DNA of 27,396 nt from Rheinheimera soli (GTDB lineage Bacteria; Pseudomonadota; Gammaproteobacteria; Enterobacterales; Alteromonadaceae): contig NZ_JAJOYU010000043.1 in the NCBI RefSeq assembly GCF_021290985.1, positions 1 through 27,396 on the forward strand, given 5' to 3'. The position numbers and the translations under genes were made by a program. The notes under the pieces are model-generated. The model made no database searches. It was not told the DNA's origin and was given only the letters and a program-made list of their open reading frames with translations. Positions 1 to 24,582 of the stretch are shown in pieces (positions within the stretch are counted from its first letter, which is position 1; every line of letters begins with the position of its first letter).

Positions 1-272
1 ATTGGACTCAGGTTCGCCCGGAGATACTGAGTAAAGAGTTCGCTGCGGTGCGTGACCTGGTACCGGAGATCGCGAAGTTAAAACCTGAGCAGCGCCCGAC
101 TTTCCACGAAATACGGGCTCTTGGTGGACACCTATATCTTCAAGCAGGCTTTACTGCAGATTACGTGCAGACACTGATGGCCCATAGCACAGCTAAGATG
201 ACAGCTCATTACACAGAAAGGCATGAGCTGAGATGGACAGCGTGTGATGGAACTATCTCATTTAGACTTTAA
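1..272 (+). CDS. int: Tyrosine recombinase / phage integrase, C-terminal part (5' end lies outside the window)
   Basis: The frame is open to the window edge (WTQVRPEILSKEFAAVRDLVPE...). The translation ...RPTFHEIRALGGHLY...TLMAHSTAKMTAHYTERH matches the C-terminal catalytic region of lambda-Int-type integrases (H-x-x-R, second His, Tyr nucleophile). Stop TAA at 270..272. Confidence 0.85.
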   Translation, partial: WTQVRPEILSKEFAAVRDLVPEIAKLKPEQRPTFHEIRALGGHLYLQAGFTADYVQTLMAHSTAKMTAHYTERHELRWTACDGTISFRL

Positions 273-324
273 AAATCACTACTTAAACTAATTTTTGCAG
301 CAATCAATACAGTACTCAGTGGCC

Positions 325-2592
325 TCAATGTTTAATGATGTTTATAATAATTTCTATATCATCATCAAAAGCGAATGTTCCCCGAAGCATAGTCTTCAAT
401 TCGAACAATACAGACAATGCATCGTCAAGCTCAGTCGTGTCACCAGAAAATTCATAATCCTCTTCCATCATTTGAAGATATGAACCACCAGGACACATCA
501 TACTCTCATAATGAAGTGCATGCTCAACCAAGCGAGAATAGAAATCAATTAAATAGCTAACGATACCAACCCCATGAAGATCTATAGCCTTTTTTATATC
601 TTTTCTATAATCTCTAAAAAGTACCGACTTACTGTCATGTATCACATAATCATTAAACAGCAGCCCTACATAGTTATATATACTTAACGAAGAGTAATCC
701 CTATCGTAGAACCCTTCGGGATGGTCCTGAAAATCATACCCAATGGAAAGGTCTATTTTGCTACAGCTGTAACCGATAATATACTGAGTCTTTGAATAAT
801 CTACTTGAATGCCGGGTTGCTCATTGCATACATTAGCAACAAACTCCAAAATAGACTCTGCGCTTTCTGGATCGATTGCCATTTTGTCTATACCATTTAA
901 AGCCAAGTCCAACAGCAAGCCTACAACGTGACTATTAGCTAATTTACAATTATCAATATAGGACATTATCGCTTCAATCATATGAATCTGGAGCCCAAAA
1001 TCCAAATTAAAAATCAAAGATGCTGGCACGTTATGAAAGCATAGATATTTAAACATGCACGTAGTGCTAATATCAAATGATGGAATAGATGCAATTTTAT
1101 TTATAACTTCCTCAGAGTCACCTAACTTGGAAAAATGTTCAATCAGCAAAATATCTCTATACGTCTCATCATAGAACTCGACAAAGCCATCAATCACCTC
1201 TAAGACGCCATGATTTTTATAAGCATCTGGCACAAATGTAAATCGACTTAGCCCAAAAATTTCGGCAAATGATTCTAAGGTAACTTTTGAAGGACCGTAT
1301 GCCATCACTTTAGCGAGATTAAGCAAAGCGGCCTTTGAATCAATCTCTTGACTAGTAGAAATGCAACTACATTTTTCATTCAACATGCGAACTAAAATCT
1401 GATATTCATTGTCAAGCTGCTTAAGTTCATAACCAGAGTTGATTAACTGGTAAAACTTCCCGACTGCATTTATAGAAGTTAATAACTGCGATGGTTCAAC
1501 CGTAGTATTGTATACCGATTTGTAATGCTGGATAACGGCACTATATGATGCCGCATCTAGTTGTGGAACTTTAATCTCCCTAAATACATTCTTAGAGTTA
1601 TTTTTGAACATCCCTATAGAATTATTTTCACCATCTGATTTTATGGTGTTAGTAAATGAGTCACTGCAACTAATTATAAACCTTACACCTGCGAGAGAAA
1701 TCATCTCTATATCTGTGATTATAGAATGCCTCTCATGAATATTAACTTCATTTAATCCATCAACAAACATTGTAATATTTCCACTAGAAATAATGGCATT
1801 AGCTATTATTTCTGGTGTACTGCCCGGCGGATTCATGAAAAGTGTAATTTGACTTTTTAAATATTGAATAACACCGTTGACTATTGATCTTGCTCTAAAA
1901 AAAATAGCAATTTCACCGCGTTCAATAGCCAAGTCAAAAGCATTGCATAAGTAGTTGGTTTTTCCAGATTGCGGAGGGCCAGAGATTAGTAATACCTTAA
2001 TATCGGGTTCTGGATCTCCGACTATGGGTATATAAAGTTCTTTGCAATGTTTTTTTGATTCGTTTAACTCACCACTTAATCGATGAATTTCAATCATCGA
2101 CAATTTTTCGCAGATACTTCCAACAAAACTACCATCATTGCTGAGTAATTTTATAGCTTCTTCTTTCGCAATGCTAAATGCAGTATCTCTGTACTGAAAT
2201 TCACCATCTAGAGCCAAACGAATATCGATATTTTTTATTTCTTTTTTCGTAAGTGAGCAATATACATATGTATTTATCGAATTAGTTATGACTACAATCG
2301 GCGCCATGTTACCTTTTAGGATTCGAGCATAGCTAACAGACTGATCAATAGACTCGGTGGAAATTTTTACGCTTGGTTTCTTAATTTCAAAAAGAATTAA
2401 ATTTATGCCATTATTAGACTTTACCAACAAATCAAAACGGCCGGCCTTGTGGATAGCGAACTCACCATGCCCAATTTGATATTTCACACTTCGTTCAAGT
2501 AAAATGTTAACTGAACTAATACCCTGAACCCGCAACCATTCATAAACAAATTTTGTTCTAACTTCATCTTCCGTTGTTATTTCGCTGCCCAT
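325..2592 (-). CDS. P-loop STAND/NACHT-like NTPase with an N-terminal PD-(D/E)xK (HsdR-N/Mrr-like) nuclease domain; candidate antiphage Avs/bNACHT-type protein
   Basis: 755-aa ORF, AT-rich. The N-terminus reads ...GRFDLLV...INLILFEIKKP...APIVVITNS..., a D...E-x-K restriction-endonuclease-like pattern (D54, E69, K71). Walker A GPPQSGKT is at nt 1957..1980. The Walker B-like MFVDGLNE at nt 1747..1770 resembles the NACHT hhhhDGhDE motif. The C-terminal region of about 450 aa is unassigned. Confidence 0.65.
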   Translation of the reverse strand: MGSEITTEDEVRTKFVYEWLRVQGISSVNILLERSVKYQIGHGEFAIHKAGRFDLLVKSNNGINLILFEIKKPSVKISTESIDQSVSYARILKGNMAPIVVITNSINTYVYCSLTKKEIKNIDIRLALDGEFQYRDTAFSIAKEEAIKLLSNDGSFVGSICEKLSMIEIHRLSGELNESKKHCKELYIPIVGDPEPDIKVLLISGPPQSGKTNYLCNAFDLAIERGEIAIFFRARSIVNGVIQYLKSQITLFMNPPGSTPEIIANAIISSGNITMFVDGLNEVNIHERHSIITDIEMISLAGVRFIISCSDSFTNTIKSDGENNSIGMFKNNSKNVFREIKVPQLDAASYSAVIQHYKSVYNTTVEPSQLLTSINAVGKFYQLINSGYELKQLDNEYQILVRMLNEKCSCISTSQEIDSKAALLNLAKVMAYGPSKVTLESFAEIFGLSRFTFVPDAYKNHGVLEVIDGFVEFYDETYRDILLIEHFSKLGDSEEVINKIASIPSFDISTTCMFKYLCFHNVPASLIFNLDFGLQIHMIEAIMSYIDNCKLANSHVVGLLLDLALNGIDKMAIDPESAESILEFVANVCNEQPGIQVDYSKTQYIIGYSCSKIDLSIGYDFQDHPEGFYDRDYSSLSIYNYVGLLFNDYVIHDSKSVLFRDYRKDIKKAIDLHGVGIVSYLIDFYSRLVEHALHYESMMCPGGSYLQMMEEDYEFSGDTTELDDALSVLFELKTMLRGTFAFDDDIEIIINIIKH

Positions 2593-2686
2593 AACTAAAG
2601 AACCTTTAATTCATATAAATTCATACAATTTAGCGGCTAATTCATAACCAAAAACCGCCAGAAGGCAATCGGCGTGTTAATAGTTA

Positions 2687-3526
2687 TTACGCTTTACTCA
2701 GATAGTGCTCACGGTGATAGCGTATAAATTTTTGTCCGCTCTTGTGTTGAGCAACTGTTTTAAGTTTTCCAGGTAAACCAATCAAGCTCAGATCATCATT
2801 AATAGAAAAGACACCATTGTCGAACATCACATGATGGTTTGGACACAGGCTTAACAGGTTATCTTCAATATCAGGGCCGTTATGTGGTTCACCTAAAGGT
2901 TGTATATGTACTGCTTCCGAGTATAGACCTGCGGAAGTCTTAATAGCTAAGCCACAGACCTGGCACTGATAACCATGCCATGATTTGACATTGATAGCTC
3001 GCTGGTAATCTCTAACAATTTTGTTTACCGAAAATTGTTTTCTCTTAGGCGTTTCATGTTCTACCAGGCTCTCGTTGTACGAATTTCCTATGGCTACTAG
3101 TCTATAACGCCAGACATAAAAACATTATTTTCCTTTGTCACACCAATAATCATCGACAAAATATAGACCGCAATATTTATAGCCCTTGAGAGGACTTAGT
3201 TCATGCTTATGCTTGAAGCCCCTTGTCACTCTAACAGGAAGGCCATCAATTTTGCTTCGTGCCAGAGCAAGGTTAACGCCTATCAACTCTTGATTGGTTA
3301 CTTGTTTACCGTTTTGCTGACCAGCAGCGCCGGTGTATATGAGCTCGTGCCCGAAGTCTTCATCATCTTCACAGTCTCCAGCTAAAACTATTGAATCAGC
3401 ACCTTCATTTTGGGAACCACTGATACCTGCTAGTGTTGGAGGGTGCACACCTGCCTTTGCTAGTGCGTCTCTGTTTTCAAATACAGCACCAAGACTTACC
3501 CCAGGAATTTCACCAAATACTCGCAT
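2687..3526 (-). pseudogene. SRA(YDG)-HNH modification-dependent (type IV) restriction endonuclease interrupted by one in-frame TAA at 3125..3127
   Basis: A single reading frame of 840 nt reads ...GYKYCGLYFVDDYWCDKGK*CFYVWRYRLVAIGN...YQCQVCG...EAVHIQPLGEPHNGPDIEDNLLSLCPNHHVMFDNG...HYLSKA*. The HNH part has no ATG/GTG/TTG until 47 codons before its end, which is why it is missing from the ORF track. Confidence 0.75.
3125..3526 (-). CDS. SRA/YDG domain ORF (133 aa), the translatable N-terminal portion of the disrupted SRA-HNH gene
   Basis: MRVFGEIPGVSLGAVFENRDALAKAGVHPPTLAGISG...GADSIVLAGDCEDDEDFGHELIYTG...LPVRVTRG...GYKYCGLYFV follows the canonical SRA/YDG pattern. A good RBS (AAGGTGATAA) precedes the ATG at 3526. 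Confidence 0.8.
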   Translation of the reverse strand: MRVFGEIPGVSLGAVFENRDALAKAGVHPPTLAGISGSQNEGADSIVLAGDCEDDEDFGHELIYTGAAGQQNGKQVTNQELIGVNLALARSKIDGLPVRVTRGFKHKHELSPLKGYKYCGLYFVDDYWCDKGK

Positions 3527-3569
3527 TTATCACCTTATGCATAACATCCGCATTTACAACAGTTTTGAA

Positions 3570-3759
3570 TAGTAAGCGGCGCTCTACTTCTAATAAAATC
3601 CGTTATCTTCGTCAGCACTTCTGTCATCGGGCAGGTTTTAGAGAAGATTATGTTCAGACACTAAAGTACAACAGCACTGCGAACATGACCGTTCGTTCTA
3701 CTGCCTGGCATACACCGGAATGTAAAGCTGTTAGTAGCTGTTTCAGATTACAAAACTAA
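3570..3759 (+). pseudogene. Decayed 3' remnant of a second integrase gene, paralogous to the one at 1..272
   Basis: The translation ...STSNKIRYLRQHFCHRAGFREDYVQTLKYNSTANMTVRS...SCFRLQN* aligns collinearly with ...PTFHEIRALGGHLYLQAGFTADYVQTLMAHSTAKMTAHY...ISFRL*. The catalytic His, His and Tyr positions are lost. The nucleotide alignment is visible by eye, and the 5' part is replaced by the SRA gene. The left boundary is approximate. Confidence 0.6.
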
Positions 3760-4103
3760 TCAAATTGACGGTTTTGGTATGAGGCTATTTCAGGCACTTC
3801 AAGGAAAATCTTGCCATTTTCAACAGTAACAACAAAAGAATCATCCCAATCACTTTCTACATCCATGTCAGAACAACCGTTATAGACGTTGTAATCAAAA
3901 TTATAACTTACAGTAAACTGACCATCACCTTCGTCTTGTACATGCTCAATGTTTAAGTTGTAGCATTCAGCACGTGGAATAATGTCAGAAAAGTTCACCG
4001 TCAAGAGCGCTAGTATTCTTTCAGCATGCGTCGATAGGATACTCTGTATCAATAAACAGGAAACACCGCCATCTTCATCTACGGTTGATATAAACTCTGT
4101 CAT
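3756..4103 (-). CDS. Hypothetical small acidic protein (115 aa), last gene of the rexAB-like cassette
   Basis: The ORF has a good RBS (AAAGGGG 6 nt upstream of the ATG at 4103) and lies 53 nt downstream of the rexB-like gene on the same strand. It is rich in Asp/Glu. I recognise no family. Confidence 0.6.
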   Translation of the reverse strand: MTEFISTVDEDGGVSCLLIQSILSTHAERILALLTVNFSDIIPRAECYNLNIEHVQDEGDGQFTVSYNFDYNVYNGCSDMDVESDWDDSFVVTVENGKIFLEVPEIASYQNRQFD

Positions 4104-4156
4104 TAAATGCCCCTTTAATTTCCCTTAAGAATGCAATATTTATTAAATACTCTCAC

Positions 4157-4579
4157 CTATGGTTGGGTTGAGCTTTTGGTGCTTATGTTTACCAGTATTA
4201 TGGTCATAAATAAGACCTGAAACAGGTTGTTTACTGTTGATCCTACAGCTAACTTCATAAATACATCACCGAAGTTATCACTAAGCGTCAGCAACGCGCA
4301 GCCGAATGTGAAAAATAGAGAAATGATCGAAAAAAAATATATCCAGTAAAAAACTGAAAAGTATCCTTTTTGGTCATATCGTCTTATCAACGAGTTGCGT
4401 CTCAAGCCAATTAAAATAGTAATAACAGCCGCTAAAAAGCCAAGCATTGTGAAAGCAAATGTTGCCGTTATAACTGCGACATTTGCTTTTTGGACAAACA
4501 ACGATAAATGGAACCCATTAAAACAATGCTTAATTAGTAGGTACAGTAGGTATAAAATTGGTCCAGGCATCAATGTCAT
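4157..4579 (-). CDS. rexB: RexB-like four-helix inner-membrane protein
   Basis: Four hydrophobic segments. The protein is collinear, from memory, with lambda RexB: MTLMPGPILY.. versus ..RIMPGVYIV.., and FTMLGFLAAVITILIGLRRNSLIRRYDQKGY versus GTMIAILIAALTFLIGSRTRRLAKIREYGY. The start was chosen by that alignment (ATG at 4579, about 140 aa). The ORF track start at 4630 is a GTG, so the start is uncertain. Confidence 0.65.
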   Translation of the reverse strand: MTLMPGPILYLLYLLIKHCFNGFHLSLFVQKANVAVITATFAFTMLGFLAAVITILIGLRRNSLIRRYDQKGYFSVFYWIYFFSIISLFFTFGCALLTLSDNFGDVFMKLAVGSTVNNLFQVLFMTIILVNISTKSSTQP

Positions 4580-5507
4580 TAAAGACAGCGATAGCTTGAG
4601 AGTTACCGTTCTCGAATCCTTCATCTGCACAATACTCGTTAATTTTCACCGCTAATGCAGCATTATCACGAAATTTTTTCTCCATTGTTTCAGCTATTTT
4701 GTTTACCTTTTTCGCATCAACGGAGTCTGATAAACCACCACTACCGACTATGTATAAGTCAGTCAATAGACTAGCAGCCTCTTCTTGCTTCGCTCTGATT
4801 ATAAGCTTGTCCACGTTTTCTTCTGGTACTTTCGCAAGAAGGTTTTGAACGGCTGGTTTAATGTTCTTTCTCAACTTTGGTATCAAAGTTATTTGTATAC
4901 CGGATACATCGTCATAATCTGTTGAACTTCCAGATAACAGATTGAAAAGATCTTGAGTGAAGGAATTATCTCTGTCCAGTTCAATGTGTGTTTTTCCAAT
5001 AAAAGACATTTCCATAGCTTTCGTTCTAGTGGCAGAAACCAAAGCTGTCCTTGGAGTCAAAGCCCAATTTGACAGTCCTATATGAGTCAGCAAAGAACCA
5101 ATATAACTCCAAAGTACGTCTTGTCTAGGAGCCAGTAAGGTAGACCCTATACCTATACAGCTTTCTTTAACTATCACATAGGAAGCAAAGCTTAAATGCT
5201 CATTCTGAGCAAGGAGTGAGTGCACCTCACTAACCGTCAGATCATCGGTCTTAATTCGGCGAATTATCTCTTTACTTCGCGTGATTAAGAATAGAAAAAC
5301 ATCACCAACATGATGAATTAAATAGACATTCTCACCTTGATGGCTAAATTGATTTTTAAAGGATGGCGCGTTTACGGCACAATAGGCCTTCAGGAATGGT
5401 CTGATATCGTGCTTATAGCGGGTGTTATCGTTAGTGTTTTGCAAACAGTAATGAAAATAGCTGACTTTCAAGATAAACCTCCATTGTTTACCGATATTGA
5501 ATACCAT
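4530..5507 (-). CDS. rexA: RexA-like phage-exclusion protein
   Basis: 325 aa, with RBS AGGAAAAT before the ATG. Similarity to lambda RexA (from memory) is collinear: VFLFLITRSKEIIRRIK...HLSFASYVIVKESCIGIGSTLLAP versus TFLFTKTNDKSLVQKIN...SLGFPSFLFVEGDTIGFARTVFGP; MSFIGKTHIEL versus MHFIGRTTVKV; IQITLIPKLRKNIK versus LDIVIKPKFKRDIK; LIIRAKQEEA versus ISLRAKDEAG. Confidence 0.65.
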   Translation of the reverse strand: MVFNIGKQWRFILKVSYFHYCLQNTNDNTRYKHDIRPFLKAYCAVNAPSFKNQFSHQGENVYLIHHVGDVFLFLITRSKEIIRRIKTDDLTVSEVHSLLAQNEHLSFASYVIVKESCIGIGSTLLAPRQDVLWSYIGSLLTHIGLSNWALTPRTALVSATRTKAMEMSFIGKTHIELDRDNSFTQDLFNLLSGSSTDYDDVSGIQITLIPKLRKNIKPAVQNLLAKVPEENVDKLIIRAKQEEAASLLTDLYIVGSGGLSDSVDAKKVNKIAETMEKKFRDNAALAVKINEYCADEGFENGNSQAIAVFNDIDAWTNFIPTVPTN

Positions 5508-5560
5508 ATATTTTCCTGAGTTTACAATTCATTTTTCCAAAATTTTTCCAAACGAAAAAC

Positions 5561-5598
5561 ACAAACAAAAACAAAAACAGCACCCGTAAGGTGCTGTT
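5561..5598 (-). terminator. Rho-independent terminator immediately downstream of tRNA-Val
   Basis: Perfect 9-bp stem AACAGCACC / GGTGCTGTT (5576..5584 and 5590..5598) with a 5-nt loop. On the minus strand it is followed by TTTGTTTTTGTTTGT. A T-run also follows on the plus strand, so it may act in both directions. Confidence 0.7.
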
Positions 5599-5612
5599 TT
5601 TGTTTTAGAATT

Positions 5613-5689
5613 TGGTGCGTCCTAGTGGACTCGAACCACCGACCCCCACCATGTCAAGGTGGTGCTCTAACCAACTGAGCTAAGGACGC
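5613..5689 (-). tRNA. tRNA-Val (anticodon GAC), with encoded CCA
   Basis: The reverse complement reads GCGTCCTTAGCTCAGTTGGTTAGAGCACCACCTTGACATGGTGGGGGTCGGTGGTTCGAGTCCACTAGGACGCACCA. It folds as a cloverleaf with anticodon loop CTTGACA and is nearly identical to enterobacterial tRNA-Val(GAC) as I remember it. Confidence 0.95.
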
Positions 5690-5731
5690 ATTTTGATAGG
5701 TTGTTATCACTTTACTGCGACAACGGGCGCT

Positions 5732-5760
5732 ATGTTATGCAGCCGTTGCTTTGCTTGCAA
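5732..5760 (-). promoter_or_regulatory. Candidate sigma70 promoter for tRNA-Val
   Basis: On the minus strand: TTGCAA (5760..5755), a 17-nt spacer, then TAACAT (5737..5732), followed by a GC-rich discriminator (AGCGCCC) typical of stable-RNA promoters. The leader would be about 35 nt. Confidence 0.35.
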
Positions 5761-5900
5761 GTACTTTTTTTAAAAGCCAGCCTGTTTGCTGTTATTTTAA
5801 ACGCCTGAAGCAATGACTGGCTCAAAAGCCACGGAGTTGGTTCTTAGAATACTGATTTCAGTGATATATTCTGCGTCATTGTCCAAGTCGTGGAGCTGTT

Positions 5901-6305
5901 ATGTTTACCCCTGTCCATACCTTTGAATTTGCTGAACTGGCTAAACAAAAAATTGCCGAATTTAATGCTTTGCATTGGGATGCGACCAAAAGGCAACAGT
6001 TGGGCTTCAAGCTGGAAGATCATGAAGGTAACTTAATAGCCGCTTTAGCTGGCCGTACTTTTGGCAATTGGTTTTATCTGGAGTCTTTATGGTTGGACGA
6101 AAAAGTTCGGGGAAAAGGCGTAGGATCAAAGCTGTTGATTGAGGCTGAAACCCTCGCCAAAGCAAGGGGTTGCAGCTTTGTTATTCTCGACACTCTGGAT
6201 TTTCAGGCCAAAGCTTTTTACGAGCGACATGGCTATCAGCTGGAATGGACACAGCAGAACTACCCTTTCACCGGCTGTAAACACTTTATGACCAAAAGGC
6301 TTTAA
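5901..6305 (+). CDS. GNAT family N-acetyltransferase
   Basis: 134 aa with acetyl-CoA binding motif A VRGKGVGSKLL and the C-terminal ...AFYERHGY typical of GNAT proteins. A GGAG RBS is present. Confidence 0.85.
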   Translation: MFTPVHTFEFAELAKQKIAEFNALHWDATKRQQLGFKLEDHEGNLIAALAGRTFGNWFYLESLWLDEKVRGKGVGSKLLIEAETLAKARGCSFVILDTLDFQAKAFYERHGYQLEWTQQNYPFTGCKHFMTKRL

Positions 6306-7570
6306 TTTTTCTTTTTCTCAGCCTGATACACAGAATGAACCCAGTCAGGATTGCCATCATTGGGTGCAGGCTGAATACCTAAAATACGGCACATCAGGTT
6401 ATACAATTCGATATTGGAAAAGGCCGGAATTTGACTGCCTGCGGCAAAAGCCGGACCGTACCCCACAAAAATAGCCTGCATAGCCGGGCTATTATTATCA
6501 TAACCATGGCTGCCAGTCACAGCGCTACGGCCTGGTTTTTCCAGCCATTCTTTTTGTCTATGTTTTTGCATTAAACGCCAGCCAGTGTCAGGTACCACTA
6601 ACAATGGAGCTATACGTGTACTGTTCTGGTAGTGCCAGCGTTCCGGTAACTCAGACTTTTTATAAACCCTGGCCTGAGGTGGCAGTGACGTTTTTAACTG
6701 CTGGTAAATAGCTTCTAATTCGGCTTTTTTTGGAAAAATAGAGACTATCTCTGGGGTCCATAACACCAAAGCCGCTTTTTTCTGGTCAAACAGCTGATCC
6801 ATCGCCATCACCTGATCCTGTGGCACTTTGGCCATACCATGATCTGATACCAGCATCAGGTTTATGCTGTGTTGCAAGCCTCTTTGTTGCAGCCCCTTCA
6901 CCAGCACACCCAGCGCCTGATCCACATCCGCAATAGCGTCAGCCACCTGTTTTGACTCAGGGCCATAAGCATGCCCTGCGTCATCCACCGAGCTAAAATA
7001 CAACGTCAGAAACTTGGGACGCTGCTCAACTGGTAAATCCAGCCAGGCCAACACAGAGTTCACTCTATCGATATTACTGACAGAGCCATCATAGGCTTGC
7101 CACAAGCCAGGCCTGACCCCTTTAATAGCCGCTTCTGAACCGGGGAAAAAATAGGTACCGGTTTTAACCCCCTGCTTCTCTGCAGTCACCCAAATAGGCT
7201 CACCCAACCACCAGCGGCCATTGGTAACTTCCTCTGGTTTGCTCATACGAAACACAGCATCAAAATCAGCATCGTAAATATTATTTTCGACAATACCGTG
7301 ATTCGCCGGGTACAAACCTGTGGCTATGCTGTAGTGGTTAGGGAAGGTTTTTGTCGGAAAGACCGGCTGCATACTAAGGGCTCTGGCACCACCTTGGGCA
7401 AGTTGGTGTAAAACAGGTGCTTTGTAACTATCCCAGTACTTCTGACCAAAACCGTCGATGGAGATCAGCAGCAAACTATGATCCTGTGACTGTGAATGCG
7501 ACTTCGCTTGTGCACTATGAAGATCGAGGCTGATCACTAAGCACAACAAAACCAGAAAAAAACTACGCAC
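6302..7570 (-). CDS. Secreted ectonucleotide pyrophosphatase/phosphodiesterase (NPP family, alkaline-phosphatase superfamily)
   Basis: Signal peptide present. Motifs LLLISIDGFG, PTKTFPNHYSIATGLYPANHGIV (catalytic Thr) and ...VSDHGM are present. Confidence 0.85.
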   Translation of the reverse strand: MRSFFLVLLCLVISLDLHSAQAKSHSQSQDHSLLLISIDGFGQKYWDSYKAPVLHQLAQGGARALSMQPVFPTKTFPNHYSIATGLYPANHGIVENNIYDADFDAVFRMSKPEEVTNGRWWLGEPIWVTAEKQGVKTGTYFFPGSEAAIKGVRPGLWQAYDGSVSNIDRVNSVLAWLDLPVEQRPKFLTLYFSSVDDAGHAYGPESKQVADAIADVDQALGVLVKGLQQRGLQHSINLMLVSDHGMAKVPQDQVMAMDQLFDQKKAALVLWTPEIVSIFPKKAELEAIYQQLKTSLPPQARVYKKSELPERWHYQNSTRIAPLLVVPDTGWRLMQKHRQKEWLEKPGRSAVTGSHGYDNNSPAMQAIFVGYGPAFAAGSQIPAFSNIELYNLMCRILGIQPAPNDGNPDWVHSVYQAEKKKN

Positions 7571-7701
7571 AAAGCACCTGCTTATATCGAAAAATCAGCA
7601 GTGTACTGAGCACCGCAGGCAGTCATATGACAAAACCGACCAAAAGTAAAAAAAATGCTATCAACGGCGAAAAACCAGGCCTCGGCATCATAAAAAGCGG
7701 T

Positions 7702-8781
7702 TCAGGCCACTACTTGCCAACGACCGCCTTTGGCTGGCCCTGTGCGAAGTAACTTGCCTTCAGCTTTTAATTTTGCCAATTGTTTTTCTATAGCTCTGGA
7801 GCTTAACCCCAGTTCATCTGCGATGGTTTTAGCACTTAATCTGTTGTCTTTTTTCAGTTTCTTTAAAATTTGATCTTCGGTTTTATACCAGGGACCTGGC
7901 GTTTTTGTTTTCACTTTTTGTGTTTGCAGTTGCACAAATTGTGACAAATCCACCAAAGGCTGATCCGGCAAATTTGCCGTCTGACTAAGACTATTGAACT
8001 CGGCCTGCTGCAACTGCAGCTGCTCTAATTCAACGCTCAGTGTTTCATTGATGCTACGCAACATAAACAAAATAAAAGCCGTTGCATCGTATTTAGGCAC
8101 GGACTGACGTAAAGCTTTTTGGTAGTCGCGTGTTTTATCTTTAAGCACAGCAGTAAAGGGCAAATAAGCAAAAAAAGACTGCCATTGAGTTAAAACTAAA
8201 TGCTGCCATAAGCGACAAAGACGGCCATTGCCATCGGAGAACGGATGTATAAAGGCCAGTTGATAATGCATTAAACAGGAAATCAGTAACGGATGTACTT
8301 GTTCATGCTGCAGTTTCCCCAACAGCTCATCCACCAAAGCGGACACTTTGGCCGGTGCTGGTGGCATATGCACCAGTTTGTGGCCCTCATACACCCCAGC
8401 GCCCTGCTTTCTGTACTGTCCGGCATCAGTGGATACTGAACTCATAAACTCTGCATGAGCCTTGCGTAAATCGGCACTTTGATAAGGATTAAACTGATCC
8501 AGCCTTTGATACAAAGCCAGAGCATTTTGCGCTTGCTGGATATCCTGCACCAAGGCTACTACGCGTTTACCAGCCGCAAGCTCCTGCAACTGCAGCAATG
8601 ACAGGGAATTGTGGTCTAAAGCCAGACTAGCCTGCAAAGCTTTGTTCTGTAATTCCAGGCGTTGTTGCAATGACAACGAAGTCAGAAACACCGACCACTG
8701 GGCCAGTTGCTGTTCAATCTGCTGAATTAACTCCGGGATTTCCGGATTCGGCTGATAAAAGGTCTGGTATCTATCCATCAC
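7702..8781 (-). CDS. Fic family protein (probable AMPylase) with a C-terminal winged-helix DNA-binding domain
   Basis: Fic motif HPFSDGNGRLCR. The C-terminal segment LSAKTIADELGLSSRAIEKQLAKLKAEGKL is HTH-like. Confidence 0.85.
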   Translation of the reverse strand: MMDRYQTFYQPNPEIPELIQQIEQQLAQWSVFLTSLSLQQRLELQNKALQASLALDHNSLSLLQLQELAAGKRVVALVQDIQQAQNALALYQRLDQFNPYQSADLRKAHAEFMSSVSTDAGQYRKQGAGVYEGHKLVHMPPAPAKVSALVDELLGKLQHEQVHPLLISCLMHYQLAFIHPFSDGNGRLCRLWQHLVLTQWQSFFAYLPFTAVLKDKTRDYQKALRQSVPKYDATAFILFMLRSINETLSVELEQLQLQQAEFNSLSQTANLPDQPLVDLSQFVQLQTQKVKTKTPGPWYKTEDQILKKLKKDNRLSAKTIADELGLSSRAIEKQLAKLKAEGKLLRTGPAKGGRWQVVA

Positions 8782-9023
8782 ACAACCACCTGCATTTATT
8801 CAATGTAGTGAACTTATTGACTAGCTAAGACTAATAGAGGTTCACTGAAAAAACAAAGCCTTAGCGATATTTGAGCAATTTTTCTAAATTTTAAGAAATA
8901 AAACTGCAAAAACTGAATAGAACAGCTTGCTTTCGTTATCCGGCTCAATAACTATTGAGTCAGACTATATAAGTAGCTTTAACCCATCTGACAGTGGTTA
9001 AACAGGATTAAGCAGGAGTTTTT

Positions 9024-13343: not shown

Positions 13344-13852
13344 GACTAGTCTCTGTCGGCTTAAAAACTTCAGTTATCTTAACGGCATACAGGCAGTGAT
13401 ACCAGCTCTGGTTACTCACAGACACAGAGCCAGTAGATGAGAAGTAAGGCGAAAATATGTTTAGCGGGGAGCCGACGTCTGTGCCCTGCTCTTTCTGCTG
13501 GATTTGTTCGTTCGGCCCATCGCAACTCTCCGACCACTCAAGCAATCAGCCCCTAGTGCAGCGGGCAAACTTCCCGGATATATAAACTAATTTTTTGTAT
13601 TTGCACTCTTTAGGTGCTGAACATTTATGCAGCATAAACAGTGACAGGCAATTCCAAACCTCAGGTTATATCTGAGTCTCTGATTTACAACAAAAAACGA
13701 CCTCAAAACCTTCCCAAGAAAACGCGTGAAGATTGCAGCGACCCAGGTTAAAAAACAACGATAGCATTGGCATCCGGTACTTTGCCATCCCTTAGTGACG
13801 CACCACTTTGAACGACAACGCACAATATCTGTGCAAATCTTCAATTTATATG

Positions 13853-13881
13853 TTGAAAAAACGTTCATCCTGCATTATAAA
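13853..13881 (+). promoter_or_regulatory. Candidate sigma70 promoter of the susC-like operon
   Basis: TTGAAA (13853..13858), an exact 17-nt spacer, then TATAAA (13876..13881), about 60 nt upstream of the ATG at 13940. Confidence 0.5.
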
Positions 13882-13883
13882 CA

Positions 13884-13897
13884 AAAAGACAACGTTG
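13884..13897. promoter_or_regulatory. Candidate LacI-family operator (palindromic core CAACGTTG)
   Basis: AAAAGACAACGTTG lies directly downstream of the candidate -10 box. An identical 14-mer recurs at 24569..24582, upstream of the LacI gene. The CG-centred palindrome ACAACGTTGT (13889..13898) fits the LacI-family operator style. Confidence 0.45.
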
Positions 13898-13939
13898 TTT
13901 ATTGTCGATAAAAATAACATTACATCAACAGGACAAGAC

Positions 13940-16915
13940 ATGAAAACATTCTCCATGCATCCGTTGGCGAGAGGCATTCATATGCTTCTGACAAGTAGCA
14001 CTTTGTTACTCCCCACTTTCGTTTTGGCAGAGCAACAAACAGAGCCGCCTATACAGGAAGAACAGAAAAAAAATGAAGAAAAAGAACAACAGGATATCGA
14101 AATAATTCAGGTTTCTTATGGCTATGCCTCAGTTGAGAAAAAAGACCTGACGGGCGCTATAGCAACAGTAAAGCTTGAAGATATTTCCGACATGCCAGCA
14201 GGTAATATCATGCAAAATTTACAAGGTCGGGTACCAGGCCTGCAAATAACCACCAGTGGCAACCCGAACTCAGCGGCCACTGTTCGTATTCGTGGCCAGG
14301 GTTTGGGTCCTTTGGGAAACAATGACCCTCTGTACGTGATTGATGGTATTCCCACTAAATCAGGTCTGCACGAGATCAACAGCAATGATATAGCGGACGT
14401 ACAGGTACTGCGTGACGCTGCCGCGGCCAGTATTTATGGTTCACGTGCCGGCAATGGCGTCATTGTGGTCACGACAAAAAAGGGTGAAGAAGGTCTTGAT
14501 TTTAACTTTCGTTTTAATCAGACCCGTGAAAGTTATAATTACGATCTACAACCCCTGAATACTGAACAACGAGGCGCAGCCGTATGGCGTGCCGCAGTAA
14601 ATGACAAAACCAATCCGAATACAGCAAGCCCCTTGTATAACTTTGACTGGAATGGCGATTACGATAATCCACAACTCAATAGCGTAAACCTTCCTGCGTT
14701 TACAGATCCCGACAATCTGCAACGCCCCGCCGACACCCGTTGGTTTGATTTAGTCACCCGCGAAGCTGATGTGCGGGATTTCAATGCGTCTTTATCTGGA
14801 GGAGATGACAATAGCCGGTATTACAGTTCAATTGGTTATTACAACTCAGACGGCATAGTGGATGGTTCTAACTTTGAACGTATGGCCTTTCGGCTTAACT
14901 CTGAACATGAACTGATTAAAGACCGCTTAAAAGTAGGCCAAACTTTTCTGCTGACTAATCAGGTTGGCAACCTGATTAATGACTTAGCAGGACAAATTCT
15001 GGGTTTATCCATTGAGCAGCAATCCATAGTCCCGGTTTTCAACGATGAAGGTGGCTGGGGAGGCCCTGTGCCTGGGATCACTGACAGGGATAACCCGGTC
15101 AGGATCATTGAACAAAACCGTGACAATAACCACCGTTTTAACAAGGTGATGCCTGGCTTTTTTGCCGAATACAGTCCTTTAGAGGATCTTAAACTCCGAA
15201 GCAGTTTAAGTGTCGACTACAGCCAGTTCTACTTCCGTAATTTTACCCGTAGTTTTAAAGCCGGAACTCTGACCTTTGGCGACAGGCTGACGGTCGATGA
15301 CAACTGGAGCCGCAGCATCATCGCCAGTAATACCGCCAGCTACAAAGTGGTATTGAATGAGAAACACAGCTTCAATTTGCTGGCTGGTATTGAAAAAATC
15401 AACTTTAAAAGCGAATCTGCCCGCGCCATAGGGTCTGGTTTTGCCTCCAACGATCGTGATTTTGCGTTCTTATCTCAGGCTACCCGGGATGTACGGGTGG
15501 AAGGTGATGGCGACAGCTGGGCACTGGACTCTCAGTTTGCCCGTGCCGACTATAACTACGATGATCGTTATCTTGCATCAGCCACAGTGCGACGTGATGG
15601 TTCATCCCGGTTTGGCGAAAACAATAAATACGGCACCTTTCCGGCCTTTTCTGCAGGCTGGGTGCTGTCCAACGAAGAGTTTTTTAATCTCGCCTATATT
15701 TCCAACCTGAAACTACGGCTGAGCTGGGGTGAAACCGGTAATCAGGAGATTCCAGGCAATGCCACCGCAACCACTTATATCCCTCGTTACGCCACTCAGT
15801 CTTTGTTTACCAATCAACAAGACGAAGGCACAGCTTATGACATAACAGGTGCCAATGGAGGTACTTTGCCTTCAGGTTTTGTACGTGCTCAAACGGGTAA
15901 CCCTGATCTGAAATGGGAAACATCAACACAAAGCAACATAGGTCTTGATATTGACCTGTTTTCCAACACTGTCTATGCAAGCTTCGATTGGTATCAGAAA
16001 GAAACAACGGACATTCTTACACTGACCCGCCCTGTCGCCACTTTAGGTGAAGGAGCACAAAAATGGGTAAACGGTGGCACCATCGAAAATAATGGCTTTG
16101 AAATGATCTTAGGTTATCAGGACTGGCTAAGTTTCGATGGCTGGGACGATCTCAAAGTGGACGCATCCTTTAACTTGTCCAAATCCAGAAATAAGGTTAC
16201 AGCCTTACCGCAAGACGTGATCAACAGCTTTGGTGGCAACGGCCAGGATAAAACCATTCTTGGTCGTTCCATCAACTCTGTATACGGTTATGTGGCCGAA
16301 GGATTGTTTCAAAGCCAAACCGAAGTAGATGAACATGCAACTCAGGCGGGGGCAGCTCCGGGGCGGATACGCTGGGCAGATCTGGATGGCAATGGCGTGA
16401 TCAACGAAAACGATCAGGACTTTTTTGCTACTACAGATCCTGATTTTCTCTATGGCTTGAATCTGACACTGAACTACAGAGACTGGGACTTCAATATGTT
16501 CTGGCAAGGTGTGAAAGGTGGCCAAATCCGTAACAACTGGCGCCTCTTTACCGATTTCACCTCGCTGAATATTGGCTCTAACTATGGATCAAGAGTATTG
16601 GACGCCTGGACTTTGCAAAACACCGACTCCACTGTACCAGCCCTGACGTTAGTTGATACCAATGGCGAAGGCCGTCAGTCCAGTTTTTTCTGGGAAGAAG
16701 GCAGTTATCTGAAGCTCAGAAATATTTCCGTTGGTTACAGACCTAATCTTGATCTGCTGGATAAATTTGGCATTCAGGAAGCCCGGATTTACCTGCAAGC
16801 CTCTAATTTACTCACTCTGACACCGGGTGGAACCTTAAGCGAAGATCCGGAAACACCCAATGAAGTCTTCCCGGTGCCACGCCGTATCACTCTTGGCCTT
16901 GAAATGACCTTTTAA
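13940..16915 (+). CDS. SusC/RagA-type TonB-dependent outer-membrane transporter
   Basis: Start chosen at MKTFSMHPL... (signal peptide, AGGA RBS) rather than the TTG at 13808. The plug region LTGAIATVKLEDI...LQGRVPGLQI...VRIRG...PLYVIDGIP...DIADVQVLRDAAAASIYGSRAGNGVIVVTTKKG is the SusC/RagA signature. The C-terminal residue is Phe. Confidence 0.85.
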   Translation: MKTFSMHPLARGIHMLLTSSTLLLPTFVLAEQQTEPPIQEEQKKNEEKEQQDIEIIQVSYGYASVEKKDLTGAIATVKLEDISDMPAGNIMQNLQGRVPGLQITTSGNPNSAATVRIRGQGLGPLGNNDPLYVIDGIPTKSGLHEINSNDIADVQVLRDAAAASIYGSRAGNGVIVVTTKKGEEGLDFNFRFNQTRESYNYDLQPLNTEQRGAAVWRAAVNDKTNPNTASPLYNFDWNGDYDNPQLNSVNLPAFTDPDNLQRPADTRWFDLVTREADVRDFNASLSGGDDNSRYYSSIGYYNSDGIVDGSNFERMAFRLNSEHELIKDRLKVGQTFLLTNQVGNLINDLAGQILGLSIEQQSIVPVFNDEGGWGGPVPGITDRDNPVRIIEQNRDNNHRFNKVMPGFFAEYSPLEDLKLRSSLSVDYSQFYFRNFTRSFKAGTLTFGDRLTVDDNWSRSIIASNTASYKVVLNEKHSFNLLAGIEKINFKSESARAIGSGFASNDRDFAFLSQATRDVRVEGDGDSWALDSQFARADYNYDDRYLASATVRRDGSSRFGENNKYGTFPAFSAGWVLSNEEFFNLAYISNLKLRLSWGETGNQEIPGNATATTYIPRYATQSLFTNQQDEGTAYDITGANGGTLPSGFVRAQTGNPDLKWETSTQSNIGLDIDLFSNTVYASFDWYQKETTDILTLTRPVATLGEGAQKWVNGGTIENNGFEMILGYQDWLSFDGWDDLKVDASFNLSKSRNKVTALPQDVINSFGGNGQDKTILGRSINSVYGYVAEGLFQSQTEVDEHATQAGAAPGRIRWADLDGNGVINENDQDFFATTDPDFLYGLNLTLNYRDWDFNMFWQGVKGGQIRNNWRLFTDFTSLNIGSNYGSRVLDAWTLQNTDSTVPALTLVDTNGEGRQSSFFWEEGSYLKLRNISVGYRPNLDLLDKFGIQEARIYLQASNLLTLTPGGTLSEDPETPNEVFPVPRRITLGLEMTF

Positions 16916-16938
16916 CAGCAATTTCAGCACATCAACGA

Positions 16939-18666
16939 ATGAGAACTACTATGAAACAGCTTATATACCCTTTATTCTGCAGCCTGCTTGCACTGCAGCT
17001 GGCTGCCTGTGGCGGAAGTGACGATCTGGACGTGCCGCCAAAGGCAGTATTGACACCTGATCAAGTCAGCACTGTAGCTAATATAGATGCACTGGTGATT
17101 GCCGCTTATAGCTACCTTGGCAACGACCACTACACAGCGCCCAACTTTTTATGGCCTACAGGAAATCTTCGTGCTGGAGATGCCCATAAAGGTGGTAATG
17201 GCCCTTCCGATATCTTTGCTTACCATGCCTTATCTATGTTTGAACCTATAGTGCCGGAAATGGAATCTTTTCCACCCGACCTTATTGATTTGAATGATAA
17301 AAAATGGACCCGCAATTACACAGGCATTTCCCGTGCAAACGAAGTGCTGCGTGTCATTGCCAACGCCGACAGCGCGGTAAGAGATACGCTGCAGCAAAAA
17401 GTTGCTGAGGCTCGTTTTGTCAGAGCACTGTTTTACTTTGACTTAAAAATCCACCACAAATGGATGCCCTGGATAGATGAAACACTGTCGCAGGAGCAAA
17501 TACTGACCACCAGTAACCGCGATCTGACAGATCAACAGTTATGGGACAAAATAGCGGACGATTTTCGTTTTGCTGTGAACAATTTGCCTGATGTGCAAAA
17601 AGATGTCGGCAGGGCATCCGCCCTTTCTGCAAAAGCATTACTGGCAAAAACCTTGTTGTATCAAGCTTATGAGCAAGACGAACAACACAATGTTATTGCT
17701 ATCAATACAGACAAGCTCAATGAAGTGGTCAGATTGGTGACAGAAGTCGAGCAGTCGAATGTCTATAACCTGTACGACGACTATGCAAAAAACTTCCTAG
17801 TTGAGTATGAAAATGGTGTGGAATCCGTTTTTGCAATACAGCGTTCGTTAAATGATGGCTCCCCGGATGGACGCGGCAGCTGGGCCAGCGCATTAAATGC
17901 TCCTCAGTCAGGTGGCTTTGGTTGTTGTGGTTTTCATGTGCCGACAGAAAACTTTGTTAATGCCTTCAAAACAGGGGCTGATGGCTTGCCTTTGTTTGAT
18001 ACAGGGAATAACGCTATTTATAACAAAGACACAGACGCTGTTGACCCTCGACTGGATCACACTGTCGCCATGCAAGGTAAACCTTTTAAATACGATGCCA
18101 ATCTAATCCATGGTGGAGACTCCTGGTCCAGAGCACCAGCTATCTATGGAAACTACACAGGGATGAAAGATTTAGAACATCCTGACTGTGATTGCCGTGG
18201 CGAAAATGGCCCCTTCCCTATTTTCTCTCTGAACACTGTAATGGTGCGTTTTTCAGATGTGTTGTTATGGAAAGCTGAAGCTCTGATTGAACTGGATCGA
18301 ATGAACGAAGCAGTGCCAATTATTAACAGGTTACGCCAAAGAGCTGCAGCCAGCACCGCCCGTTTAAACAACGCAAGTATCTACAGAATAGGTCAGTACA
18401 GCGCTTTCAACTCAAAAGACGAAGCCCGACAAGCCTTGCGCTGGGAGCGTCGGTTGGAATTGGGACTGGAAGGCCATCGCTTTTTTGACCTGGTGCGCTG
18501 GGGGGTAGCCAAAGAAAGTCTGGATCAGTATTTCCTGATAGAAAAAGGCCGAAAACCTTACCTGCAATCGGCTCATTTCACCAAAAACAAACACGAATAC
18601 CTGCCGATCCCAAATCTGCAGATCAACTTAAGCGGCGGGTTGTACGTCCAGAACCCGGGATACTAA
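16939..18666 (+). CDS. SusD/RagB-family outer-membrane lipoprotein
   Basis: Lipobox LQLAAC. Motifs RFVRALFYFDL, LLWKAEALIEL, INRLRQRA and RWERRLELGLEGHRFFDLVRWG match the SusD-like pattern. It lies immediately downstream of the susC-like gene. The start could instead be the ATG at 16951. Confidence 0.85.
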   Translation: MRTTMKQLIYPLFCSLLALQLAACGGSDDLDVPPKAVLTPDQVSTVANIDALVIAAYSYLGNDHYTAPNFLWPTGNLRAGDAHKGGNGPSDIFAYHALSMFEPIVPEMESFPPDLIDLNDKKWTRNYTGISRANEVLRVIANADSAVRDTLQQKVAEARFVRALFYFDLKIHHKWMPWIDETLSQEQILTTSNRDLTDQQLWDKIADDFRFAVNNLPDVQKDVGRASALSAKALLAKTLLYQAYEQDEQHNVIAINTDKLNEVVRLVTEVEQSNVYNLYDDYAKNFLVEYENGVESVFAIQRSLNDGSPDGRGSWASALNAPQSGGFGCCGFHVPTENFVNAFKTGADGLPLFDTGNNAIYNKDTDAVDPRLDHTVAMQGKPFKYDANLIHGGDSWSRAPAIYGNYTGMKDLEHPDCDCRGENGPFPIFSLNTVMVRFSDVLLWKAEALIELDRMNEAVPIINRLRQRAAASTARLNNASIYRIGQYSAFNSKDEARQALRWERRLELGLEGHRFFDLVRWGVAKESLDQYFLIEKGRKPYLQSAHFTKNKHEYLPIPNLQINLSGGLYVQNPGY

Positions 18667-18673
18667 CCAGCAC

Positions 18674-18706
18674 CAGTCAGAGCTGGCCTGGTGTCCGCTC
18701 TGACTG
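18674..18706 (+). other. Strong intercistronic hairpin between the susD-like and MFS genes
   Basis: Perfect 10-bp inverted repeat CAGTCAGAGC / GCTCTGACTG with a 13-nt loop, 8 nt after the susD-like stop. No T-tract follows, so it is not a canonical intrinsic terminator. Confidence 0.4.
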
Positions 18707-18727
18707 TTGTCACTAAAGAAGAAAGAT

Positions 18728-20044: not shown

Positions 20045-20047
20045 CCT

Positions 20048-22102: not shown

Positions 22103-22128
22103 CCTAAACCCTGAAGGGGAAAGAGCAG

Positions 22129-24339: not shown

Positions 24340-24568
24340 AGCCGGTGCTTTCTCCAATAAGCCTGTTCGCATATTTCATCGCTTTTCGCCATCCCCACTT
24401 GATACCATCTGGTTGCTTTCTGGTTAAAGACAACATCAAACCCTATATCAGATTTGGCTTCTGGGTCAATTCCTTCATATCTTGCCTGAAATCCATAGCA
24501 GCTGAAACCGAACGTATTGATTTTCGACAAGAAAAAACCGCTGCTGTAATACGGCATAATTCCCTACC

Positions 24569-24582
24569 AAAAGACAACGTTG
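24569..24582. promoter_or_regulatory. Second copy of the candidate LacI-family operator
   Basis: AAAAGACAACGTTG is identical to 13884..13897 and lies upstream of the LacI gene. A related half-site AAAGACAAC is at 24426..24434. Confidence 0.4.

What the first reader, a model, noticed from the sequence alone, without database searches (positions are those of the whole stretch)
4157..5507. Orphan RexA/RexB-like abortive-infection pair outside any prophage immunity region
The 325-aa and roughly 140-aa products are collinear with lambda RexA and RexB as I remember them (several conserved blocks in RexA, and four TM helices plus the LIG-x-R-R...Y-x-x-x-GY block in RexB). In lambda the pair sits downstream of cI and is transcribed with it. 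Here no repressor gene is present: tRNA-Val and its terminator lie immediately upstream, and the pair has its own upstream region. The rexB-like start also lies 50 to 100 nt inside the rexA-like 3' end. This recalls the internal promoter for rexB within lambda rexA and could allow independent control of the RexA:RexB ratio.
Basis: partly seen in the sequence, partly recalled or inferred. Interest (0 to 1): 0.7.

Follow-up and report, generated by a model that had tools for sequence, protein, structure and literature searches.

The report
Repressor-less RexA/RexB pair beside tRNA-Val
This is a real but fairly ordinary relative of the phage lambda RexA/RexB "suicide-on-infection" defence pair, sitting without a phage repressor at the edge of a mobile island next to a tRNA gene; its one unusual trait is that the two genes always overlap by about 100 bases in this branch of the family.

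Summary
Observation confirmed. The window is a Rheinheimera soli contig. ORF 5507..4530(-) is a RexA homologue: Pfam PF15969 E 1.4e-54, PADLOC RexA 6.9e-57, lambda RexA crystal chain 8TWQ E 1e-18, and 8TWQ is the top Foldseek hit. ORF 4624..4157(-) is a RexB homologue: Pfam 34.7 bits against a cut-off of 27, PADLOC 1.6e-22, four hydrophobic segments. No repressor lies upstream, only tRNA-Val and a terminator.

Homology to R. sediminis stops 6 nt past the tRNA 3' end. The terminator and rexAB therefore belong to a low-GC island that also holds an integrase 3' end and an integrase remnant.

The rexB start lies 95 nt inside rexA, in the +1 frame. All 14 loci examined from this "long RexA" clade (301-328 aa) show an 86-143 nt overlap. 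Codon evidence shows selection in both frames. Lambda-type pairs (269-282 aa RexA) have an 11-30 nt gap instead.

Repressor-less contexts are not new. Clade relatives sit in prophage immunity regions, next to other defence genes, and on plasmids. One metagenomic locus has the same tRNA-rexAB-integrase layout. The literature already notes RexA homologues outside prophages.

No internal rexB promoter could be supported. Verdict: a new member of a known kind, with a modestly interesting clade-wide gene overlap.

The parts
5613..5689 (-). tRNA-Val (anticodon GAC). Chromosomal anchor and probable integration target of the island.
   Evidence: ARAGORN; Rfam tRNA 68.6 bits. Homology to R. sediminis covers 5607-5810 at 92% and stops at 5607.
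5568..5606 (-). Intrinsic-terminator-like hairpin with a T-run, directly after the tRNA. It lies on the island side of the homology break.
   Evidence: Terminator scan; homology break at 5607.
5531..5552 (-). Tandem 11-mer TTTGGAAAAAT x2 in the 96-nt space between terminator and rexA. Function unknown (possible promoter or operator element).
   Evidence: Read directly from the sequence. No consensus promoter was called here.
4530..5507 (-). rexA homologue, 325 aa as annotated. The likely true start is TTG 5471, giving 313 aa. It carries a C-terminal tail of about 26 aa beyond the end of lambda RexA.
   Evidence: The DNA-binding residues R219/K221 of lambda align with R238/K240 (PMC11077077).
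4625..4637 (-). Shine-Dalgarno-like GAG (GGAG in homologues) and a 10-nt spacer ahead of the rexB ATG, embedded in rexA coding sequence.
   Evidence: GGAG at conserved spacing in L002, L007, L009 and L018 (9-12 nt in L003), and GAG in the window; the motif is absent or unclear in L010 and L019.
4530..4624 (-). 95-nt dual-coding overlap. It encodes the RexA tail (frame 0) and the RexB N-terminus with the first part of TM1 (frame +1).
   Evidence: 14 of 14 long-clade loci overlap by 86-143 nt, always in the +1 frame. The RexA Trp codon TGG is preserved by an invariant T in the preceding RexB codon.
4157..4624 (-). rexB homologue, 155 aa (157 aa if the GTG at 4630 is used). Four predicted transmembrane segments.
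   Evidence: NCBI annotates the 155-aa form as WP_366515584.1.
3756..4103 (-). 115-aa acidic ORF 53 nt downstream of rexB, with no terminator between them. Possibly co-transcribed, but not a conserved partner.
   Evidence: No family hit. Absent next to rexAB in all other loci.
3565..3711 (+). Degenerate remnant of an integrase 3' end, convergent with rexB.
   Evidence: 47% aa identity to the integrase end at 3-272, E 8e-9; DNA alignment.
1..272 (+). C-terminal end of a tyrosine recombinase, cut by the contig end. It marks the region as an integrative element.
   Evidence: Pfam Phage_integrase, 28.4 bits against a cut-off of 27.1.

Best explanation
This is a two-gene RexAB abortive-infection (phage-exclusion) module. 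It is carried as tRNA-proximal cargo of an integrative island in Rheinheimera soli and is expressed without a prophage repressor.

By homology, RexA is a cytoplasmic, non-specific DNA-binding dimer with an RdgC-like fold. It senses an infection-associated state. RexB is a four-helix inner-membrane protein. When RexA activates it, the membrane potential collapses and the infected cell stops supporting phage growth.

The pair belongs to a distinct, well-populated 'long RexA' clade. In this clade RexA carries an extra C-terminal tail, and rexB is translated from an internal SD and ATG in the +1 frame about 95 nt before the rexA stop. The most likely role of the overlap is to tie RexB synthesis to translation of rexA and so fix the RexA:RexB ratio.

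Shown here: family membership, fold, topology, island context, and conservation and dual-frame selection of the overlap. Inferred: the defence function, the sensing and depolarisation steps, and the coupling role of the overlap.
For: Family and fold:
-.
- The lambda DNA-binding residues R219/K221 (PMC11077077) align with R238/K240, and the A-K pair is invariant in the alignment.
- Four hydrophobic segments are collinear with lambda RexB.

Clade:
- A profile search of 1.84 billion representatives gives 286 clusters. Most of the top 150 are 305-320 aa and match to the end of the profile.

Overlap:
- 14 of 14 loci overlap by 86-143 nt, always in the +1 frame.
- The chance that the rexA frame stays open in the first 13 loci is about 1e-11 if they are treated as independent.
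- GGAG lies about 10 nt before the ATG.
- The Pro codon before the conserved RexB Gly is CCT in 11 of 11 loci, which preserves the RexA Trp. Neighbouring synonymous sites vary.
- Lambda-type pairs have 11-30 nt gaps.

Island:
- GC is 0.34-0.39 across 500-5500, against 0.45-0.50 elsewhere.
- An integrase end and an integrase remnant are present.
- Homology to R. sediminis ends at 5607.
- The same tRNA-rexA-rexB-integrase layout occurs in L022 with an unrelated integrase.

Function of relatives:
- A distant, prophage-encoded RexAB-type pair in P. putida defends against phage. There RexA binds DNA, and its overexpression causes RexB-dependent membrane defects (PMC12894663).
- The RexAB-like Sucellos system needs both genes (bioRxiv 10.1101/2024.07.02.601686).
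Against: - No experiment exists for this locus or this clade.
- No promoter could be identified in the 96 nt between the terminator and rexA, so expression is unproven.
- The TM3 glutamate of lambda-type RexB, proposed as a proton sink in bioRxiv 10.1101/2021.04.19.439022, is Ser, Cys or Asn in the long clade. The membrane mechanism may therefore differ.
- No RNA structure was detected at the rexB start that would point to classical coupling by unmasking (z between -1.0 and +1.1).
- The AF2 model is only of moderate quality (pLDDT 63.7).
- Rex proteins in lambda also have non-defence roles.
Confidence: 0.75

Rival explanations
1. The pair is a leftover of a decayed prophage immunity region. 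It was once cI-rexA-rexB, the repressor and the rest of the phage were deleted, and what remains is a functionless or decaying fragment.
For: - Clade relatives sit directly behind cI-type repressors: L018, L023, L010, L003 and L024.
- The island shows decay: an integrase remnant at 3565-3711 and an SRA domain with no nuclease partner.
Against: - Both ORFs are intact and keep the residues invariant across the clade alignment. The overlap, the SD-like GAG (GGAG in homologues) and the TGG/CCT site are also preserved.
- rexA begins about 100 nt from the exact island/tRNA junction.
- L022 has the same tRNA-rexAB-integrase layout with an intact, unrelated integrase. That argues for a regular att-proximal cargo position rather than a random deletion end-point.
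Confidence: 0.12
2. The pair mainly serves the mobile element rather than defence. Either RexA acts as a DNA-binding modulator of the element's own switch, or RexB acts as an anti-proteolysis / addiction-type stabiliser of the island or plasmid.
For: - Lambda RexA biases the CI/Cro switch and RexB inhibits ClpXP/ClpAP proteolysis (PMC11077077; bioRxiv 10.1101/2021.04.19.439022).
- RexAB pairs occur on very small plasmids such as the 5.2-kb pYR5.
Against: - There is no CI/Cro-type partner in the visible 5.6 kb of island.
- In P. putida, RexA had no effect on the repressor promoter, yet the pair defended against phage (PMC12894663).
- The neighbours in the window and in L002 and L007 are defence-like: SRA, a nuclease-NTPase, a TIR protein and a GAPS4-type PDDEXK protein.
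Confidence: 0.1
3. The overlap marks an internal PLIT-like promoter that gives an independent rexB transcript.
For: Lambda has PLIT in the distal end of rexA (bioRxiv 10.1101/2021.04.19.439022). The rexB start lies inside rexA.
Against: - No sigma-70-like match lies in 4580-4760. The only minus-strand match is 470 nt upstream, at 5127-5100, and the region has fewer matches than shuffles.
- What is conserved across the clade is an SD-like GGAG and an ATG, not promoter hexamers.
- An internal promoter is not excluded; it is simply unsupported.
Confidence: 0.15

Closest known systems
Phage lambda RexA/RexB (Pfam PF15969/PF15968; PDB 8TWQ)
   Same: - Gene order rexA then rexB.
- RexA fold, with conserved basic DNA-binding residues (R219/K221 aligned with R238/K240).
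- RexB of about 150 aa with four hydrophobic helices and the LIG-R...GY block.
- 26-27% identity.
   Different: - No cI upstream and no PRM-type co-transcription. A tRNA and terminator lie upstream instead.
- RexA is about 30 aa longer at the C-terminus.
- rexB overlaps rexA by 95 nt in the +1 frame, where lambda has a 15-nt gap.
- The TM3 Glu of RexB is replaced by Ser.
- No TIMM-like terminator was detected after rexB.
'Long RexA' clade members in prophage immunity regions (e.g. Methylophaga MAG L018, Mu-like viral contig L010, L023, L024)
   Same: - RexA length of 301-325 aa, the tail with its conserved Trp, and an 86-98 nt +1 overlap.
- RexB of 148-163 aa with the PGP motif.
- 27-49% identity across the clade.
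   Different: Those pairs sit behind HTH_3/Peptidase_S24 or Phage_CI_repr repressors. The window pair does not.
Repressor-less RexAB-type pairs already known
   Same: Examples:
- The Acinetobacter conjugative plasmid L027.
- Y. ruckeri pYR5.
- The V. cholerae integron system Sucellos (bioRxiv 10.1101/2024.07.02.601686).
- The orphan RexA homologues noted by Adams et al. (PMC11077077).
- Metagenomic locus L022.
All are two-gene RexA/RexB-type modules outside an immunity region. L022 shares the exact tRNA-rexA-rexB-integrase layout. L027 shares the overlap.
   Different: - pYR5 is lambda-type, with no overlap.
- Sucellos is not detected by the Pfam models.
- The orphans described by Adams et al. 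lack RexB and/or lie outside a prophage; the window has both genes.

Membership tests
RexA (Pfam PF15969 / PADLOC PDLC02339) | Profile match above the curated cut-off over the full domain | tested here: met
   185.6 bits against a cut-off of 25, model positions 1-230 of 235. PADLOC 190.9 bits, positions 1-263 of 267.
RexA (Pfam PF15969 / PADLOC PDLC02339) | Fold of lambda RexA (split globular domain plus dimerisation domain, PDB 8TWQ) | tested here: met
   The sequence matches chain 8twq_A at E 1.1e-18. The AF2 model's best PDB hit is 8TWQ (E 2.4e-8, prob 1.0, TM 0.43-0.48), followed by CENP-N-type kinetochore proteins. Adams et al. report fold similarity to the kinetochore subunits IML3/CHL4. 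Model quality is only moderate.
RexA (Pfam PF15969 / PADLOC PDLC02339) | Basic residues needed for DNA binding (lambda R219/K221) | tested here: met
   They align with R238/K240. The A-K pair is invariant and the R position is R or K in homologues. Residue roles are taken from PMC11077077.
RexA (Pfam PF15969 / PADLOC PDLC02339) | Non-specific DNA binding and dimer formation | not testable with these tools
   Needs EMSA and SEC with purified protein.
RexB (Pfam PF15968 / PADLOC PDLC02340) | Profile match above the curated cut-off | tested here: met
   34.7 bits against a cut-off of 27. PADLOC 78.3 bits, E 1.6e-22. BLASTP to lambda RexB gives E 8e-12.
RexB (Pfam PF15968 / PADLOC PDLC02340) | Four transmembrane helices | tested here: met
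   Kyte-Doolittle peaks at about 11-32, 47-77, 87-116 and 127-151, collinear with lambda RexB. No dedicated topology predictor was available.
RexB (Pfam PF15968 / PADLOC PDLC02340) | Acidic residue in TM3 (a feature of lambda-type RexB, proposed as a proton sink) | tested here: not met
   Glu in lambda and L011-L015. Ser in the window and Ser, Cys or Asn in the long clade. This is not part of the Pfam definition.
Rex defence system as called by PADLOC | RexA and RexB genes adjacent on one strand | tested here: met
   Both PADLOC models hit adjacent, overlapping minus-strand genes.
Lambda-type immunity-region rex operon | cI-type repressor immediately upstream and co-transcribed | tested here: not met
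   Upstream are tRNA-Val and a terminator. None of the ORFs scanned in 1-5600 gave a repressor-type (HTH/S24) hit.
Lambda-type immunity-region rex operon | Internal promoter (PLIT) for rexB in distal rexA | tested here: inconclusive
   No consensus match near the rexB start. A consensus scan cannot exclude a promoter.
Lambda-type immunity-region rex operon | Phage exclusion phenotype (e.g. against T4 rII) | not testable with these tools
   Needs plaque assays.

The most novel reading that the evidence does not exclude
The 'long RexA' clade is an undescribed architectural variant of Rex. A selected RexA C-terminal tail of about 30 codons is encoded out of frame over the RexB N-terminus and TM1. 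Translation of the sensor therefore hard-wires production of the membrane effector, and the tail may itself contact RexB. This self-contained design lets the module work as free-standing cargo at tRNA/att junctions, on plasmids and in defence islands, without a prophage repressor.
Probability: 0.35. Interest if true: 0.5.

Novelty: new member of a known kind. Interest (0 to 1): 0.3.

Why it matters
- For genome annotation: both genes are 'hypothetical protein' in the public record, and NCBIfam has no model for them.
- In this clade, gene callers often truncate or miss rexB because of the long overlap. Examples are 116 aa in L007, 139 aa in L002, no call in L003, and 91 aa by PGAP on the Acinetobacter plasmid. 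Rex systems are therefore probably under-counted.
- For Rex biology: lambda's Rex is entangled with the CI/Cro switch. A repressor-less natural pair, with its expression ratio possibly fixed by gene overlap, is a cleaner system for asking what RexA senses and how RexB is activated.
- The conserved tail and the loss of the TM3 Glu are concrete handles for mutagenesis.
- None of this changes the picture of what Rex is.

Tried and rejected
- Internal promoter for rexB: the consensus scan found none near 4580-4760 and no enrichment overall.
- RNA structure masking the rexB start: MFE z-scores for -60..+45 in 13 loci lie between -1.0 and +1.1. Rejected.
- A copy of the tRNA-Val 3' end marking the far island border: none in the window at up to 3 mismatches in 20 nt, and no informative direct repeats. 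The island runs off the contig.
- The 115-aa downstream ORF as a third Rex component: no family hit, and absent beside rexAB in every other locus.
- Exact look-up of the RexA protein in assemblies: not on record.
- The genome-contig scan with the alignment that included lambda failed for lack of a conserved stretch. The retry gave only 2 loci.
- tblastn against the phage collection gave a single weak record, so no annotated cultured phage of the long clade was found.
- Rfam: nothing besides the tRNA reaches a gathering score in 1-9000.
- The 755-aa neighbour has no PADLOC, NCBIfam or PDB sequence match.

Full report
**What is there.** The window is essentially a whole 27.4-kb contig of Rheinheimera soli. 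On the minus strand, tRNA-Val(GAC) lies at 5689..5613. A terminator-like hairpin follows at 5606..5568. Next come a 325-aa ORF (5507..4530) and a 157-aa ORF (4630..4157) that overlaps it.

The first ORF is a RexA homologue:
- Pfam PF15969, E 1.4e-54, 185.6 bits against a cut-off of 25.
- PADLOC RexA, 6.9e-57.
- The lambda RexA crystal chain 8TWQ at E 1.1e-18.
- 26% identity to lambda RexA taken from NC_001416.
- An AlphaFold2 model built on six sequences is of moderate quality (pLDDT 63.7, pTM 0.64). Its best PDB match is still 8TWQ (E 2.4e-8, probability 1.0, TM 0.43-0.48). The next hits are CENP-N-type kinetochore proteins; Adams et al. (PMC11077077) report fold similarity of lambda RexA to the kinetochore subunits IML3/CHL4.
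- The residues whose double alanine substitution abolishes DNA binding in lambda RexA, R219 and K221 (PMC11077077), align with R238 and K240.

The second ORF is a RexB homologue:
- Pfam PF15968, 34.7 bits against a cut-off of 27.
- PADLOC RexB, 1.6e-22.
- 27% identity to lambda RexB, E 8e-12.
- Four hydrophobic segments collinear with lambda RexB.

**Refinements of the gene models.** rexA most likely starts at TTG 5471, giving 313 aa:
- GGAGG lies 6 nt upstream of that codon.
- Every homologue starts with M-K/R-V/I-N/S-Y-F at that point.
- Both profiles begin at residue 13.
- In the representative search, nearly all listed full-length hits start at profile position 1.
- Residues 1-10 of the annotated form have pLDDT 28.

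rexB most likely starts at ATG 4624, giving 155 aa. This is also the form NCBI annotates, WP_366515584.1, as 'hypothetical protein'.

**The overlap is the interesting part.** The rexB start lies 95 nt inside rexA, in the +1 frame. I collected relatives from metagenome assemblies, viral contigs, GTDB genomes and plasmids. They split cleanly into two groups.

- In 14 of 14 loci with a long RexA (301-328 aa), rexB starts 86-143 nt before the rexA stop, always in the +1 frame.
- In lambda and eight lambda-type loci or plasmids (RexA 269-282 aa), rexB starts 11-30 nt after the rexA stop.

Elsewhere both alternative frames are full of stops. If the 13 loci first examined are treated as independent, the chance that the rexA frame stays open across the overlap in all of them is about 1e-11.

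Several loci have GGAG about 10 nt before the rexB ATG; the window has GAG.

The strongest evidence for dual coding is at one site. The Trp conserved in all 14 RexA tails is a TGG that straddles the RexB codons xxT-GGN. In the 11 loci where RexB reads Pro-Gly-Pro, the first Pro codon is always CCT. It is never CCA, CCC or CCG. The adjacent Gly and Pro codons, by contrast, vary freely at their third positions. That pattern requires selection on the RexA frame on top of selection on RexB.

The long clade is not rare. A profile search of 1.84 billion cluster representatives finds 286 clusters, and most of the best 150 are 305-320 aa and match to the end of the profile.

I found no mention of this overlap in the Rex papers I searched.

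A practical consequence is that gene callers truncate or drop rexB in this clade.

**Context.** Positions 500-5500 have 34-39% GC, against 45-50% for the rest of the window.

The syntenic region of R. sediminis matches the window from the GNAT gene rightwards. It matches again over the tRNA-Val and its upstream 120 nt, at 92% identity. That second match stops at window position 5607, six bases past the tRNA 3' end. The terminator, the 96-nt leader and rexAB are therefore island DNA joined at the tRNA end.

The island also holds:
- a 115-aa ORF of unknown function;
- a degenerate integrase 3' remnant at 3565-3711;
- an SRA-domain-only ORF;
- a 755-aa protein with a nuclease-like HSDR_N_2 N-terminus and a Walker A motif;
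- the 3' end of a tyrosine recombinase at the very contig end.

There is no repressor, and no phage structural or replication gene, in the visible 5.6 kb. The island continues beyond the contig, however, so a prophage further out cannot be excluded.

**Is a repressor-less Rex pair unusual?** No. Within the long clade, several pairs sit directly behind cI-type repressors:
- L018: HTH_3 plus Peptidase_S24.
- L023, L010 and L003: Phage_CI_repr.
- L024: HTH_3 plus S24.

Others do not:
- L007 follows a TIR protein.
- L002 lies near a GAPS4-type PDDEXK protein.
- L027 is an Acinetobacter conjugative plasmid.
- L022 shows tRNA-Gly/Cys/Leu, then rexA-rexB, then a convergent intact integrase unrelated to the window's. 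That is the window's layout, arrived at independently.

PLSDB holds 29 plasmids with RexA homologues, including a 5.2-kb Yersinia ruckeri plasmid with a lambda-type pair. The literature already notes RexA homologues outside prophages (PMC11077077) and a functional RexAB-like system in a Vibrio integron (bioRxiv 10.1101/2024.07.02.601686).

[quoted passage not shown] Together they exclude phage by an abortive mechanism that involves loss of membrane energetics (PMC11077077; PMC12894663; bioRxiv 10.1101/2021.04.19.439022). I infer the same for this pair.

Without CI/Cro partners, RexA's switch-modulating role has no visible target here.

How the pair is transcribed is unresolved. No consensus promoter was found between the terminator and rexA. 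That region contains only a tandem TTTGGAAAAAT repeat of unknown meaning.

The conserved features are translational signals.

I therefore favour translational linkage of RexB to RexA synthesis as the role of the overlap. I found no RNA structure that would mediate classical coupling, so this step is inference.

One difference from lambda deserves note. The TM3 glutamate of lambda-type RexB is Ser in the window and Ser, Cys or Asn across the long clade.

**Verdict.** This is a genuine RexAB pair that standard tools (Pfam, PADLOC) detect, in a context that is already documented for the family: a new member of a known kind. The conserved, dual-frame-selected overlap and the RexA tail define a subfamily feature that seems undescribed. 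It is worth a short note and a simple experiment, but it does not make the system a new kind.

Noticed in passing
window 1-272 (+) and 3565-3711 (+): The 3' end of a tyrosine recombinase gene is cut by the contig end. A degenerate second copy of the same 3' end (47% aa identity, catalytic residues lost) lies 3.3 kb further in. This suggests two successive or recombined integrative modules at tRNA-Val.
   Followed up: partly
window 325-2592 (-): A 755-aa protein with an HSDR_N_2 (restriction-enzyme-like nuclease) N-terminus and a Walker A motif (GPPQSGKT). It has no match in PADLOC, NCBIfam or PDB sequences. It is a candidate uncharacterised defence gene in the same island.
   Followed up: partly
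window 3125-3526 (-), 2687-2830 (-): A 133-aa ORF that is nothing but a SAD/SRA (modified-cytosine-binding) domain (E 3.4e-36), with no nuclease domain attached. A 47-aa ORF downstream may be a remnant. This is possibly a truncated type IV restriction gene.
   Followed up: no
window 5531-5552 (-): A perfect tandem repeat TTTGGAAAAAT x2 lies between the island-borne terminator and rexA. No consensus promoter was called there, and its role is unknown.
   Followed up: no
window 13347-24863, and 5810-5901 vs L029 2662-9001: Compared with R. sediminis, the window carries about 11.5 kb (TonB-dependent receptor and neighbours) with no counterpart there. It also lacks a 6.3-kb glycosyltransferase/NfrA_C/DUF4434 operon that R. 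sediminis has between tRNA-Val and the GNAT gene.
   Followed up: no
L027 (A. baumannii plasmid NZ_CP149839.1) 4854-5321; L007 2966-3433; L002 5841-6314; L003 4260-4733: In public annotations and gene calls, the rexB homologue of the long clade is truncated (91, 116 or 139 aa) or missing. The likely cause is the long overlap with rexA.
   Followed up: yes
window 7702-8781 (-): A Fic-domain protein with a C-terminal HTH lies in the conserved chromosomal flank. It is also present in R. sediminis.
   Followed up: no
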